Shown here: positions 56,718 to 63,402 of the stretch, piece after piece
Numbering within the stretch: the first letter of the stretch is position 1
Layout of the letters: each line of letters opens with the position of its first letter
Virus record (IMG/VR): IMGVR_UViG_3300043567_001187
Span: 30,486 to 94,485 of that record
Direction: 5' to 3' (one strand)
DNA length: 64,000 bases
Source of the DNA: a virus
Program-made: the position numbers and the translations under genes
Notes under the pieces: generated by a model
Database searches by the model: none
What the model was told of the DNA's origin: nothing
What the model saw: the letters and a program-made list of their open reading frames with translations, nothing else

Positions 56718-57036
56718 TGTCTAACCTATAGAGAGGAATAATTGTGTTAGGATCAAGATGTGGATTTTTTTGGAGTCTTAAATCAAAAAGGTCGCCCTTC
56801 TCATTAATTCTGGCCCAAGCAACTTCTTTATAATCGAGATTTTTAGTAATTTCTTCAACTAAATCTTGATTACAATTAAATAGTTCTTGATAAGAGTCTG
56901 CTAATTTTTGACGCAATCTTTTCAATTCATCTTTAGCATTAAGAATATTAAACTTAGTTAATTTCCAGTGTCCAGTATTAGAGGCATCCTCACAACACTG
57001 AAGAAGATGATCTAGGGGATTAGAATGTTCATTCAT
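56701..57036 (-). CDS. hypothetical protein
   Basis: ORF. Confidence 0.55.
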   Translation of the reverse strand: MNEHSNPLDHLLQCCEDASNTGHWKLTKFNILNAKDELKRLRQKLADSYQELFNCNQDLVEEITKNLDYKEVAWARINEKGDLFDLRLQKNPHLDPNTIIPLYRLDNGSIS

Positions 57037-57050
57037 TTTTCAAACCCTTT

Positions 57051-57056
57051 GGTGTA
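57051..57056 (+). promoter_or_regulatory. GGTGTA putative phage (late) promoter motif upstream of the HNH gene
   Basis: Same hexamer precedes several minus-strand genes; here it switches strand with the gene. Confidence 0.5.
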
Positions 57057-57093
57057 TATCTATTATAGCGTTTACCATACAGGAGTCAAGAGT

Positions 57094-57546
57094 ATGACAA
57101 AAAACTATACAATCCCTTACTTAAAAGTTATAGTCAAAAAATCCAAGTCCATTAGAGAAGTATTATCCAATCTCAATATGGCTACTGCCGGAGGTAATTA
57201 TCAAACCATTAAAAATAAAATTGCTGAATATAATATTGACACTTCTCATTTTACTGGTCAGGCATGGAATAAAGGGAAAAAACTAGGCCCAAAAAGATCA
57301 CTTGATGAATATTTGTCAAATCAAAAACCTATACAAAGTTGGAAACTTAAAAAAAGATTACTAAAGGAAGGATTGTTTGAATCAAAATGCTATAACTGTT
57401 TTAAAGATAGTTGGATGGATAAGCCAATTCCTCTTGAATTACATCATATTGATGGAAACAATACAAATAATAGTCTTTCTAATCTTAGTATATTATGCCC
57501 TAATTGCCATGCCTTAACTGATAATTATCGAGGTAAAAATAAATAG
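57094..57546 (+). CDS. free-standing HNH homing endonuclease
   Basis: CYNC, LELHHIDGNNTNN..NL.ILCPNCH; AGGAG SD; only credible plus-strand gene. Confidence 0.9.
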   Translation: MTKNYTIPYLKVIVKKSKSIREVLSNLNMATAGGNYQTIKNKIAEYNIDTSHFTGQAWNKGKKLGPKRSLDEYLSNQKPIQSWKLKKRLLKEGLFESKCYNCFKDSWMDKPIPLELHHIDGNNTNNSLSNLSILCPNCHALTDNYRGKNK

Positions 57547-57813
57547 GAGTGGTGGGAGTCGAACCCACACTGGACGGATTTTCTTACCACTATAGTTTTC
57601 ACTACCATTTCTGTTTGTGGTCTGGACTTTACCTTAACCATAACTTTCGTTTTAGGTTCCTGCCATCAAGTCTCTACACCTTCATATTTCTATGCTTGGC
57701 TCGGTATTAGCATTTTAAAGCCTTCACCGAATTTGACAGGTTCTACTATAAAGATTTCTCCTTATGCACTCAATTTAATAAGTCCGTTGTCTCTGCCATT
57801 GGACTACACTCCC
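57544..57813 (-). tRNA. trnL: tRNA-Leu(UAA) with group I intron; exons 57780..57813 and 57544..57582
   Basis: Spliced: GGGAGUG UA GUCC AAUGGCA GAGAC A ACGGA CU UAA AA UCCGU CCAGU GUGGG UUCGACU CCCAC CACUCCU A. Confidence 0.92.
57583..57779 (-). mobile_element. group I intron (IC3-like), 197 nt, no ORF
   Basis: U-G splice pair in P1 (ACUU/GAGU), P3 CCUGUC/GGCAGG, P4 UUCGGU/ACCGAG, P7 AGAGACU/AAAGUC, GAAA tetraloops, terminal G. Confidence 0.92.
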
Positions 57814-57815
57814 AT

Positions 57816-57899
57816 AAAACACCCAACTACAACAGTTCTTGATTCGAGGTTGATTATTTTGTGCCTCTCTCATTTAAACTGCTGTAGTCGGAATGTTTT
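57816..57899 (-). ncRNA. long hairpin RNA between the HTH gene and the tRNA
   Basis: CCGACUACAGCAGUU/AACUGUUGUAGUUGG 15-bp stem with minus-strand G-U pairs, plus AAAACA/UGUUUU. Confidence 0.6.
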
Positions 57900-57918
57900 G
57901 GTTTTAAATTAAAGTCTC

Positions 57919-58200
57919 TCAGCCGTTAGCATGGGCCTTGAGACGACGAACAACCTCTGCCATAGCCTCGATATTATCGACTGTCTTATTCGGCTTGGCA
58001 CGTTCCATAGATGGAAGTTCCATACCCTTCTTAGCCAGAGCGGCCTTTGTACGAGCATATCTAGCCATCGTACTAGCGACCTTCTGCCCAGTCTTGGACG
58101 CAATTTCCGCATAAGTCTTAGAAGAAAATACAGCCTCAAGAAACTGCTCATCATCACAACGAACACGCTTCTGCTTCTCACTTGTAATTACATCGCCCAT
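57919..58200 (-). CDS. small basic HTH-like protein
   Basis: TYAEIASKTGQKVASTMAR; GAGAGG SD; strong promoter upstream. Confidence 0.7.
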   Translation of the reverse strand: MGDVITSEKQKRVRCDDEQFLEAVFSSKTYAEIASKTGQKVASTMARYARTKAALAKKGMELPSMERAKPNKTVDNIEAMAEVVRRLKAHANG

Positions 58201-58277
58201 AATCAACCTCTCAATCTTTGAAACCAAATTTACAACCAAGTTCGATCACGCGACCGAATCACTTGTGTTGTATCCTC

Positions 58278-58305
58278 ATTCTATCCTATGGTATCGTCTT
58301 GTCAA
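58278..58305 (-). promoter_or_regulatory. sigma70-type promoter
   Basis: TTGACA-16-TAGAAT, CGATA in spacer. Confidence 0.75.
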
Positions 58306-58324
58306 GAGTCCAAACTTGAAAAAA

Positions 58325-58510
58325 TCAGAAAGCCACTAAAGATTCTTGTTTGTGACGATTTTCCAAATCTTGGTATGCAATTTTTAGTAATTCGTTTTCT
58401 GTTTCTAGTTTAGATATGATTTCTTTTGCTTGAGATAAAGCAAGTGTTAAAAACTTAATTTTATTAGCTAATTCATCAGCAACATAGGATCGCATACTTT
58501 TAACTACCAT
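58325..58510 (-). CDS. coiled-coil hypothetical protein
   Basis: AAGGAG SD. Confidence 0.55.
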   Translation of the reverse strand: MVVKSMRSYVADELANKIKFLTLALSQAKEIISKLETENELLKIAYQDLENRHKQESLVAF

Positions 58511-58544
58511 ATTTTTCTCCTTTATAGATAGATGGTAGACACTG

Positions 58545-58817
58545 TTAATTACACCGTGTAGATATAAAATCCTTGAGTTCTTTTAATTGAATATTATTAA
58601 GAACTATTTGATCACCATATGGTTGACCATAAAACAATATACGATAACAGTATCGTAACTTTTGCCACAAAGATATTTTATGACCATAAAAACTAGTAAA
58701 AATAGCAAAATCTGCTAATTTTAGTTCATGGTCATAGTCTATATACAAAACTTCAGTCCCACAAGTACATAAAATAAATAAGGTCTTATTTGTTTTTAGA
58801 TTTGTTAGGCTTGCCAT
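58545..58817 (-). CDS. hypothetical protein
   Basis: ORF with CTC motif. Confidence 0.55.
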   Translation of the reverse strand: MASLTNLKTNKTLFILCTCGTEVLYIDYDHELKLADFAIFTSFYGHKISLWQKLRYCYRILFYGQPYGDQIVLNNIQLKELKDFISTRCN

Positions 58818-59749: not shown

Positions 59750-59776
59750 AAAACCTCCAAAAGCGTGTATGCTACG

Positions 59777-59805
59777 ATTCTACCTTAATGGTATCGGCTT
59801 GTCAA
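59777..59805 (-). promoter_or_regulatory. sigma70-type promoter
   Basis: TTGACA-17-TAGAAT, CGATA in spacer, GGAGG SD. Confidence 0.75.
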
Positions 59806-60467
59806 CCCGCTCTCTTGAAAAATCCTAATGCTTCCTCTATTGACCAGTCTATATTAGAGTCTATAAGTTCTTTTTGTTGATGGTTAAATTCAGCCGGATT
59901 TTTTTGAAAAGGCTCTGGTGCTTGACCTTGATTTATAAGATTAAATCTATGTCCTATAATATTAAGATAATTATGATGATTCTTTAAAAACGTATCGTAT
60001 GATAATAATACATAGTTTTTAGCAATTACCGGCATTATATTGTTAAGATAATAACATTTTTCTTTACGTAGTTCAAAAAGATTTTTATATCTTTGTTTGG
60101 TTTTATAATTTCTATCGTATAAAATTTCTCTACGTTTATTATCTAAAGAATACCATTCACTTGTTAATAGTTTATTAAAATTCCATCTAATTTCCCTTGG
60201 AGCATGATGGGGAGCTAAATACATAGCACATAACCAGTCATAGGGATTTCTTACTATACCAATAAACAAGGTGCTTCTTGCTATAGGATGATAAGATATA
60301 GTTTCTGGTTTAGTAAAACCAAAAAAATGTTTAAATCCAAAGAAATATGTAAGTTCTAAACCAAATCGCTGCTTGATACAACTTTCTAAAAAATTAGTTC
60401 CAGAATGTCTTTCACCATATATAGTAAATTTATCTATATAATGAGAATTTCTATAGAGTTGTAACAC
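59802..60467 (-). CDS. sulfotransferase-like protein
   Basis: YGERHSGTNFL (5'-PSB-like), IVRNPYDWL (3'-PB-like). Confidence 0.65.
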   Translation of the reverse strand: MLQLYRNSHYIDKFTIYGERHSGTNFLESCIKQRFGLELTYFFGFKHFFGFTKPETISYHPIARSTLFIGIVRNPYDWLCAMYLAPHHAPREIRWNFNKLLTSEWYSLDNKRREILYDRNYKTKQRYKNLFELRKEKCYYLNNIMPVIAKNYVLLSYDTFLKNHHNYLNIIGHRFNLINQGQAPEPFQKNPAEFNHQQKELIDSNIDWSIEEALGFFKRAG

Positions 60468-63047: not shown

Positions 63048-63402
63048 TGGAGGCGGCGGGTTCTGCCCCCGCGTGTTGTGATATTTCTAATTACATCTTC
63101 TACAAGTTTATTTTATTCATGAGTTAAATTGGATTACAGAATAAACAAGACTAATCCAATCTTACCAACTTCTCTTAACCTACAACCCGTTGGATATTGT
63201 AAGTGCAGAGGGATTTGACGACAGACTTTTGATCGCTACCCTCATTCGCAATCTCAGTCTGTTACTGCCCTTTTTTGTCAGGCAGCAAGTGCTAACTGAT
63301 TTGTGCCAGTTAAAGCATTTGGTAGATTTTTATAGTGGCCTTTCCACCAACCACTACTTGCTAACATAATCTTCTATATCCAATCGATTCTATTTCGCCC
63401 CC
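63048..63402 (-). ncRNA. ssrA: tmRNA, one-piece, 355 nt; tag (A)GTNQLALAA at 63278..63307
   Basis: GGGGGCG/CGCCUCC-A acceptor with G3-U70, P2 helices, pk1 (GUAGUGG/CCACUAU, UUGGUGGA/UCUACCAA), UAACU resume context, ALAA-stop. Confidence 0.92.

What the first reader, a model, noticed from the sequence alone, without database searches (positions are those of the whole stretch)
57816..58271. 3' hairpin RNA carrying a perfect 12-nt antisense to its own gene's RBS and start codon
Seen: the transcript from promoter 58278 has a 5' leader hairpin (UACAAC..UUCGGUC-GCGU-GAUCGAA..GUUGUA), the RBS GAGGUUGAUUAU(G) at 58199..58210, the HTH ORF, then an 84-nt hairpin directly before the tRNA 5' end. Its apical part contains AUAAUCAACCUC (57846..57857), exactly complementary to that RBS and mostly in a loop, with CCUC masked by a local GAGG. 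Inference: tRNA 5' processing by RNase P would release or expose this element as a fold-back or trans-acting repressor, coupling tRNA maturation to shut-off of an early regulator. This resembles type I toxin-antitoxin fold-back control but in a new arrangement.
Basis: partly seen in the sequence, partly recalled or inferred. Interest (0 to 1): 0.72.

Follow-up and report, generated by a model that had tools for sequence, protein, structure and literature searches.

The report
Phage 3' hairpin pairs own RBS
A conserved RNA hairpin at the end of a small early phage gene carries in its loop the mirror image of that gene's own ribosome-binding site. Matched mutations in related phages indicate that the two pair, so the message most likely folds back to limit its own translation, a trick known from a few bacterial genes but, as far as I could find, not from phages.

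Summary
All features lie on the minus strand of an uncultured T4-like lake phage: a strong promoter, a 5' leader hairpin, a strong RBS, a 93-aa HTH gene and an 84-nt hairpin. That hairpin ends 3 nt before a tRNA-Leu(UAA) gene that contains a group I intron. The hairpin loop holds an exact 12-nt complement of the gene's SD, spacer and AU of the start codon.

The match is not chance. Of 109 distinct related loci, 86 keep the hairpin with a loop complementary to their own RBS. The 18-bp stem covaries, and 14 of its pairs show double changes. In three different hairpin backgrounds an RBS change G to T is matched by a loop change C to A. The SD-AUG spacer is conserved only where the complementary loop exists.

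Best reading (about 0.65): an icaR-like 3'-UTR/RBS fold-back that dampens translation of the HTH gene, on a hairpin that also forms the mRNA 3' end. Coupling to tRNA maturation is not required, because the element persists in loci that have no tRNA. The type I toxin-antitoxin comparison does not hold.

It is a new variant of a known kind. This scan has already found the same element in related phage genomes. No RNA data could be obtained.

The parts
58278..58305 (-). Sigma-70-type early promoter (TTGACA-16-TAGAAT) of a phage-specific class with conserved TTCAAG upstream and CGATA in the spacer
   Evidence: 11 of 12 matches. It is conserved in all relatives. A second copy of the class lies at 59805.
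58231..58272 (-). 5' leader hairpin at the predicted transcript start, with a near-invariant GUCGCGUGAC-type apex and an outer stem that varies between relatives while staying complementary
   Evidence: Sequence, fold, conservation across relatives.
58198..58210 (-). Shine-Dalgarno, spacer and start codon (GAGGTTGATTATG); this is the target of the loop
   Evidence: The spacer TTGATT is kept in 78 of 86 loci that have the complementary loop and in 9 of 19 that lack it.
57919..58200 (-). 93-aa helix-turn-helix protein gene (P0001). It is highly conserved, GC-richer than its neighbours and of no named family
57816..57899 (-). 84-nt 3' hairpin: an 18-bp covarying basal stem plus a weakly paired apical region of about 45 nt
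   Evidence: 14 of 18 pairs show double compensatory changes; single copy in the window, 90.9 bits.
57846..57857 (-). Anti-RBS 12-mer in the apical loop, the exact complement of 58199..58210
   Evidence: Conservation and covariation.
57864..57867 (-). Local GAGG that pairs with the CCUC of the anti-RBS and so acts as a 4-bp inner mask
   Evidence: The same inner pairing is predicted in most relatives.
57544..57813 (-). Context: tRNA-Leu(UAA) gene interrupted by a group I intron, starting 3 nt after the hairpin
   Evidence: RF00028 at 57789..57601. Relatives carry the same tRNA with or without the intron.

Best explanation
The hairpin behind the HTH gene is the 3'-terminal structure of that gene's mRNA. 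The end is made by RNase P cutting at the adjacent tRNA, or by termination where no tRNA follows. The hairpin's apical loop base-pairs with the SD, spacer and start codon of the same gene, about 340 nt upstream. A nascent transcript can be translated from its strong RBS until the 3' hairpin has been made. After that the loop competes with 30S subunits for the RBS, so output per transcript is limited, possibly with faster decay as well. This lets a very strong early promoter, which also drives the tRNA, coexist with a modest or brief supply of the regulator.

Shown: the anatomy, the conservation, the stem covariation, and the co-variation between RBS and loop.

Inferred: that both elements sit on one transcript, that pairing happens in vivo, that it represses rather than protects, and whether it acts in cis or in trans.
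For: 1. Exact 12-nt complement, unique in the window and in the 94-kb record. The gene's own RBS is the top duplex target among 1431 candidate start sites.

2. The complementarity is conserved. 86 of 109 distinct related loci have a complementary loop. In 65 distinct RBS/loop pairs, positions 1-8 pair in about 100%, positions 9-12 in 82-85%, positions 13 and beyond in only 9-42%, and the UU:AA at -2/-3 in 85-94%. In register, 88% of positions 5-12 pair, against 17-56% when the register is shifted.

3. The RBS and loop change together. RBS G7 to T is matched by loop C to A in three very different hairpin backgrounds. These are L196 (12-nt perfect match), L384 (14-nt perfect match) and L312 (10 nt). 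None of the 43 distinct pairs with G at RBS position 7 has A in the loop. The T variants sit at four or more separate places in the ORF tree. L041 has a loop C to T change that keeps a G.U pair. L284 has a different hairpin whose loop complements TTGGAGGTT.

4. The SD-AUG spacer TTGATT is kept in 78 of 86 loci with the loop, although third-codon identity there is only 0.69. It is kept in 9 of 19 loci of the clade whose loop has decayed, where third-codon identity is 0.80.

5. Insertions between the paired block and the ATG (L143, L171) leave the 12-nt complement intact.

6. The loop's 5' half can change (L307, L298) while the anti-RBS stays.

7. The basal stem covaries, and the element is single-copy and always follows this gene.

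8. Precedent exists. The icaR 3'-UTR anti-SD pairs with its own SD, blocks ribosome loading and feeds RNase III (PMC3868564). aSD-like 8-mers hundreds of nt downstream pair with the RBS in vivo, repress expression and are otherwise depleted from genes (PMC12697547).
Against:
- The net predicted energy is modest: duplex -15.2 kcal/mol against opening costs of 4.6 and 7.2, giving about -3.4 kcal/mol at 37 C.
- Cofolding the 5' segment with the apical region gives a median of -12.7 kcal/mol, against -7.3 +/- 3.7 for shuffled loops, and 8% of shuffles reach that median.
- One clade of 19 distinct loci and two distant homologues (L269, L300) keep the gene without a convincing anti-RBS. The pairing is therefore dispensable.
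- Some RBS changes are not compensated (L380, L203).
- The core on both sides is nearly invariant, so covariation rests mainly on one position. The tree of a 282-nt gene is only moderately resolved, and phage mosaicism could blur how independent the events are.
- A closed 14-nt loop cannot wrap a full 12-bp helix without melting the inner GAGG:CCUC pairs.
Confidence: 0.65

Rival explanations
1. Trans-acting version. The hairpin is released as a small stable RNA, with its 3' end made by RNase P at the tRNA and its 5' end by a cut in the AU-rich stretch after the stop codon. It accumulates and represses HTH mRNAs in trans. That would be delayed negative feedback of the OppZ/CarZ type, and would link tRNA-operon processing to shut-off of the regulator.
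For: The hairpin ends 3-6 nt before the tRNA in most loci. The spacer between the stop codon and the hairpin is AU-rich and unstructured. The anti-RBS sits in an apical loop, as in many antisense RNAs. 3'-UTR-derived sRNAs that repress their own operon are known (PMC7398697). The icaR authors also left cis versus trans open.
Against: At least 8 distinct loci keep the element without a tRNA. Most loci have no conserved U-tail or Hfq-type module. The net trans energy is modest. There is no evidence for the upstream cut. Cis pairing needs no extra assumptions.
Confidence: 0.15
2. Structure only. The hairpin serves as a 3' stabiliser, terminator or processing site (RNase III or RNase P context) for the mRNA/tRNA precursor. 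The loop sequence is conserved for another reason, such as protein binding, and its complementarity to the RBS has no regulatory effect. A variant is that the pairing protects the mRNA, as in hbs, rather than repressing it.
For: The long covarying stem, whose middle section (GGCUACA/UGUAGUC) is conserved in sequence, suggests recognition as double-stranded RNA. U-runs follow the stem where no tRNA is present. One clade keeps the hairpin without the anti-RBS. The energies are only modestly better than shuffled controls. A 5'/3'-UTR pairing that protects rather than represses is known for hbs (PMC5737220).
Against: This reading does not explain the matched RBS/loop changes in three backgrounds. 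It also does not explain the spacer constraint seen only where the loop is complementary, the shifted but retained complement in L284, or retention of the anti-RBS while the rest of the loop changes.
Confidence: 0.12
3. DNA-level reading. The two inverted 12-bp copies are operator sites for the HTH protein (autoregulation by looping), or the loop region is a promoter or RBS for something on the other strand.
For: The gene encodes an HTH protein. On the plus strand the loop reads as an SD, followed by ATG in some relatives.
Against: Loop position 9 varies A/G/T while the RBS copy is invariant, and G keeps a G.U pair only at the RNA level. The site lies in the loop of an RNA hairpin with a covarying stem. 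Loop length varies by non-multiples of 3, and in the window itself no start codon follows the plus-strand SD at a usable spacing (the loop complement continues ATT), so there is no conserved antisense ORF. The most conserved block, TCAACCTC, is not -10-like, many relatives lack any -10-like hexamer there, and no promoter was called there.
Confidence: 0.04

Closest known systems
Staphylococcus aureus icaR mRNA: the 3'-UTR anti-SD motif UCCCCUG pairs with its own SD (PMC3868564)
   Same: A pyrimidine-rich motif in the 3' UTR is complementary to the SD of the same gene, which encodes a small transcriptional regulator. In icaR the pairing blocks ribosome loading and feeds RNase III, and cis versus trans was left open.
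   Different: - The host here is a phage, not a bacterium.
- The complement is 12-14 nt and includes the spacer and start codon, not 7 nt.
- It is displayed in the apical loop of a conserved 84-nt hairpin that is itself the mRNA 3' end and abuts a tRNA.
- The evidence here is natural covariation, not experiment.
Long-range aSD-like sequences that pair with the RBS (Gill et al. 2025 preprint, PMC12697547)
   Same: An aSD-like 8-mer several hundred nt downstream pairs with the RBS in vivo and inhibits initiation and mRNA stability.
   Different: Those sequences are synthetic substitutions, and natural genes are depleted of them. Here the sequence is positively conserved and co-evolves with the RBS.
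OppZ and CarZ, 3'-UTR-derived autoregulatory sRNAs of Vibrio cholerae (PMC7398697)
   Same: An RNA from the 3' end of an operon base-pairs with its own transcript to inhibit translation.
   Different: OppZ and CarZ depend on RNase E and Hfq and end in a terminator. Here the 3' end would be made by RNase P at a tRNA, and no Hfq-type tail is conserved.
hbs mRNA 5'/3'-UTR interaction, Bacillus subtilis (PMC5737220)
   Same: [quoted passage not shown]
   Different: In hbs the pairing masks an RNase Y site and protects the mRNA. Here it covers the SD and the start codon.
hok/Sok-type fold-back (fbi-tac) of type I toxin mRNAs, and lambda sib retroregulation (from my own knowledge, not checked in the library)
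   Same: A 3'-terminal element controls expression of the upstream ORF. In hok the 3' end pairs with the 5' region and keeps the mRNA inert until it is processed.
   Different: There is no toxin and no antisense RNA here, and the pairing is to the RBS itself. sib acts through RNase III and decay, not through SD masking.

Membership tests
icaR-type 3'-UTR / RBS fold-back | A motif in the 3' UTR complementary to the SD region of the same gene | tested here: met
   Exact 12 nt in the window. 8-14 nt in 86 of 109 distinct relatives.
icaR-type 3'-UTR / RBS fold-back | Pairing shown by disruption and compensatory change | tested here: met
   Only natural variants are available. RBS G7 to T goes with loop C to A in L196, L384 and L312, and there is no loop A among the 43 distinct pairs with G at RBS position 7. 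Uncompensated cases exist (L380, L203).
icaR-type 3'-UTR / RBS fold-back | Both elements lie on one transcript | tested here: inconclusive
   There is a strong conserved promoter upstream, and no terminator or strong promoter is predicted between the RBS and the hairpin.
icaR-type 3'-UTR / RBS fold-back | Pairing lowers translation and/or triggers RNase III decay | not testable with these tools
   This needs reporters, toeprinting or RNase assays.
3'-UTR-derived autoregulatory sRNA (OppZ/CarZ type) | A stable sRNA processed from the mRNA 3' end | not testable with these tools
   No RNA-seq was available. An AU-rich linker that could be cut is present.
3'-UTR-derived autoregulatory sRNA (OppZ/CarZ type) | A Rho-independent terminator with a U-tail (Hfq module) at the 3' end | tested here: not met
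   In most loci a 3-6 nt linker and then the tRNA follow the stem, with a mean longest T run of 2.4. Longer U-runs occur only where no tRNA follows.
Type I toxin-antitoxin fold-back (hok/Sok-like) | A small hydrophobic toxin ORF | tested here: not met
   The ORF is a 93-aa helix-turn-helix protein of 4 helices with generic HTH structural neighbours.
Type I toxin-antitoxin fold-back (hok/Sok-like) | A cis-encoded antisense RNA gene | tested here: inconclusive
   Only weak plus-strand promoter-like sites (9 of 12 matches), at the level expected by chance.
Intrinsic (Rho-independent) terminator | A short GC-rich stem with a small loop followed by a U-tract | tested here: inconclusive
   The scan did not call one, since the loop is far larger than 8 nt. 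The window has UGUUUUAU after the stem, most relatives with a tRNA have weak tails, and loci without a tRNA have 4-7 U.
Any curated RNA family (Rfam 15) | A match to a covariance model | tested here: not met
   Across 57000..58600 at E up to 1, only the group I intron and a T-arm-like fragment match. Neither hairpin gives a hit.

The most novel reading that the evidence does not exclude
The hairpin is the 5' leader of the tRNA-Leu precursor. RNase P would release it as a discrete trans-acting anti-RBS RNA, so processing of the phage's own tRNA operon times the shut-off of its early HTH regulator. That would be a tRNA-leader-derived regulatory RNA with a dedicated target.
Probability: 0.12. Interest if true: 0.8.

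Novelty: new variant of a known kind. Interest (0 to 1): 0.6.

Why it matters
Base-pairing between a 3' UTR and the gene's own RBS is documented experimentally for only a handful of bacterial genes, and its generality is debated. Here the same logic appears in a large, widespread group of uncultured T4-like lake phages.

Three things make it useful:
- Natural compensatory variants already exist (L196, L384, L312 versus the majority form, with L380 as a natural mismatch). They make the pairing directly testable with simple reporters.
- It shows selection for an aSD-like sequence of the kind that bacterial genes otherwise avoid.
- It ties a regulator gene, a structured mRNA end and a phage tRNA into one compact, transplantable expression module.

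It would be an example of how a phage can use one very strong early promoter for both a tRNA and a tightly limited protein.

Tried and rejected
A profile query had no searchable block. P0123 gave nothing. P0130 gave one locus, L269, with a plain terminator and no anti-RBS.
- Cultured phages: no homologue of the protein, and DNA matches only to the intron and the HNH gene.
- Repeat of the RBS-variant scan in viral contigs: it found only loci already known.
- Promoter inside the loop: rejected. The invariant block is not -10-like, many relatives have no -10-like hexamer, and none was called.
- Antisense ORF using the loop as its RBS: rejected. Loop length is not a multiple of 3, and in the window no start codon follows the plus-strand SD at a usable spacing.
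- Second helix (GAUU:AAUC upstream of the SD): it is conserved, but I found no compensatory change, so I do not count it (and inspection).
- Other targets of the loop: none in the 94-kb record.
- RegB-type GGAG endonuclease as a partner: no homologue in the record, but the controls did not ring either, so this is uninformative.
- Fold of the whole mRNA: the minimum-energy structure keeps the hairpin closed and cannot represent a loop-RBS pseudoknot.
- A first cofold script used wrong apical boundaries and was discarded.
- Complex prediction was not used, because no protein-protein claim is made.

Full report
**What is there.** The window is part of a 94.5-kb IMG/VR virus record, about 68% complete. 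Its genes (rIIA, rIIB, DNA ligase, HNH nucleases) mark it as an uncultured T4-like phage.

On the minus strand I find the following features:
- An 11-of-12 sigma-70 promoter at 58305..58278.
- A leader hairpin at 58272..58231.
- The RBS GAGGTTGATTAT at 58210..58199, with the ATG at 58200.
- A 93-aa ORF ending at 57919.
- An 84-nt hairpin at 57899..57816 (-35.2 kcal/mol, z -5.3).
- Three nt later, a tRNA whose anticodon loop is interrupted by a group I intron. The intron is why ARAGORN reports no tRNA.

The apical loop contains ATAATCAACCTC at 57857..57846, the exact reverse complement of the RBS 12-mer. Its CCUC is paired to a local GAGG and the remaining 8 nt are unpaired.

**Is it chance?** The evidence within the window is as follows:
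- The 12-mer occurs only at these two places in the window.
- Its only full-length copy in the 94-kb record is the gene's own RBS.
- For 189 other ORFs of the window, the longest complement between the RBS and the 3' region is 10 nt, seen once.
- The gene's own RBS is the best of 1431 candidate start sites for duplex formation with the loop.

By my estimate a single 12-mer of this kind would still arise by chance in roughly one window in ten. The case therefore rests on relatives.

**Relatives.** The protein has no homologue in cultured phages. It has more than 670 protein clusters in metagenomes, most of them over 80% identical, and a few distant relatives at 30-70% identity. From viral and metagenome contigs I collected 109 distinct loci plus three more from a pattern scan.

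All close relatives share the whole cassette:
- The same promoter class.
- A leader hairpin with a near-invariant apex and an outer stem that changes between relatives but stays complementary.
- A strong RBS and the ORF.
- A 3' hairpin.
- In most loci, tRNA-Leu(UAA) 3-6 nt behind the hairpin, with or without the intron.

The 18-bp basal stem of the 3' hairpin is supported by double compensatory changes at 14 pairs. A covariance model built from it finds exactly one copy per locus, always behind this gene. A loose motif scan of the viral collection found true copies only next to the gene. No Rfam family matches either hairpin.

**Evidence for pairing between the loop and the RBS.**

1. 86 of 109 distinct loci carry a loop complementary to their own RBS. 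Across 65 distinct RBS/loop combinations:
   - Positions 1-8 (GAGGUUGA) pair in essentially all.
   - Positions 9-12 pair in 82-85%.
   - Pairing falls to 9-42% from position 13 onward.
   - UU:AA at -2/-3 pairs in 85-94%.

   In register, 88% of positions 5-12 pair, against 17-56% after shifting by 1-4 nt.

2. Position 7 covaries. Three very different hairpin backgrounds combine RBS G to T with loop C to A:
   - L196: 12-nt perfect match.
   - L384: 14-nt perfect match.
   - L312: 10 nt.

   No locus with the usual G has A in the loop (42 G:C and 1 G.U). On the ORF tree the T variants lie in at least four separate places. A simple 2x2 test gives about 5e-5, but it is not corrected for phylogeny. 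L041 keeps a G.U pair after a loop C to T change. L380 and L203 are uncompensated.

3. L284 has a different hairpin whose loop complements TTGGAGGTT, so the register shifts but the SD stays covered.

4. The SD-AUG spacer, normally free to drift, is identical in 78 of 86 loci with the loop despite third-codon identity of only 0.69. In the clade whose loop has decayed it is kept in only 9 of 19, at third-codon identity 0.80. Intermediates of that decay exist, with a one-base insertion in the CCUC (L275, L277, L302).

5. Insertions of 3 nt between the paired block and the ATG leave the complement intact (L143, L171). The 5' half of the loop can be replaced while the anti-RBS stays (L298, L307).

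**Weak points.**
- Predicted energies are modest. The net is about -3.4 kcal/mol once opening costs are counted.
- Cofolding the 5' segment with the apical region gives a median of -12.7 kcal/mol against -7.3 +/- 3.7 for shuffled loops.
- A whole clade and two distant homologues (L269 with a plain terminator, L300 with a small hairpin) do without the complement. The element is a tuner, not an essential part.
- Covariation rests largely on one position, because both partners are otherwise almost invariant.
- No RNA data could be obtained. One transcript, its ends, pairing in vivo and the direction of the effect are all inferred.

**Mechanism.** The most economical reading is an icaR-like fold-back. 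The 3' hairpin is the terminal structure of the mRNA. Its end is produced by RNase P at the tRNA, or by termination in the at least 8 distinct loci where a U-run replaces the tRNA. Its loop competes with 30S subunits for the SD and start codon.

The anti-RBS is transcribed last. Each transcript therefore has a short window of free translation from a very strong RBS before it is damped. This would let one strong early promoter serve both the tRNA and a protein needed in limited amount.

Experimental precedent comes from two sources:
- icaR, where the 3'-UTR anti-SD blocks ribosome loading and feeds RNase III (PMC3868564).
- The recent demonstration that aSD-like 8-mers hundreds of nt downstream pair with the RBS in vivo and are normally selected against (PMC12697547).

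A trans-acting released RNA (OppZ/CarZ-like, PMC7398697) and a protective rather than repressive pairing (hbs-like, PMC5737220) cannot be excluded.

A fold-back or trans repressor is supported. Coupling to tRNA maturation is possible but not required, since the element survives without the tRNA and the loop is already exposed in the precursor. The type I toxin-antitoxin comparison fails on its defining features. The ORF is a soluble HTH protein and there is no evident antisense gene.

**DNA-level alternatives.** I considered operator pairs, a promoter in the loop and an antisense ORF, and rejected all three. The reasons are G.U-compatible variation on one side only, the position of the site in the loop of a covarying RNA hairpin, indels in the loop that are not multiples of 3, and the lack of any -10-like conservation.

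**Novelty.** The principle is known from bacteria. What is new:
- The phage setting.
- The display of a 12-14 nt anti-RBS in the apical loop of a conserved terminal hairpin flush against a tRNA.
- The natural compensatory series.

My library searches found no phage example, though that search was limited. This scan has already flagged the same element in related genomes, and follow-up agents reached the same icaR-like reading. I reached my reading before seeing those notes, and I tested their claims here.

**Verdict.** It is a real, conserved, co-evolving anti-RBS hairpin and a new variant of a known kind. Interest is 0.6. Confidence that the pairing is functional and repressive is about 0.65.

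Noticed in passing
57544-57813 (minus strand) and relatives L002-L307: The tRNA-Leu(UAA) behind the hairpin is polymorphic for its group I intron. ARAGORN calls an intact tRNA-Leu(UAA) in 52 distinct related loci. Most of the 56 loci without a call, including the window, carry the same tRNA interrupted after CUU of the anticodon loop. The tRNA body itself also comes in several quite different sequence types.
   Followed up: partly
58278-58320 and 59775-59820 (minus strand): There is a phage-specific early promoter class: TTCAAG, about 10 nt, TTGACA, then a spacer starting AGNCGATA, then TAGAAT. It occurs twice in the window, before the HTH gene and before the Ogg-like glycosylase gene, and is conserved in all relatives. 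The conserved spacer could be an operator or an extended promoter element.
   Followed up: partly
58231-58272 (minus strand): The 5' leader hairpin has a near-invariant apex (GUCGCGUGAC type) and an outer stem that differs between relatives while remaining complementary, even in the distant homologue L269. Its function is unknown. It could be a 5' stabiliser or a protein or RNase site.
   Followed up: no
57822-57835 and 57880-57893 (minus strand): The middle of the 3' hairpin stem is conserved in sequence (GGCUACA paired with UGUAGUC in 30-37 of 38 sequences), beyond what pairing alone needs. It may be recognised as double-stranded RNA, for example by RNase III or a phage protein.
   Followed up: no
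57919-58200: The HTH ORF has 48% GC against 30-36% for its neighbours and uses no TTA codon, although the co-transcribed tRNA reads TTA. Earlier notes of this scan describe TTA avoidance in genes behind this promoter class.
   Followed up: partly
57025-57546 (plus strand): An HNH endonuclease gene (PHROG 10822, E 1.5e-46) converges on the 3' end of the intron-containing tRNA and overlaps it by a few bases. It is the only plus-strand gene in this stretch.
   Followed up: no
whole window: ARAGORN reports no tRNA and no tmRNA anywhere in the window, although first-reader notes mention a tmRNA near 63048-63402. I did not examine this.
   Followed up: no
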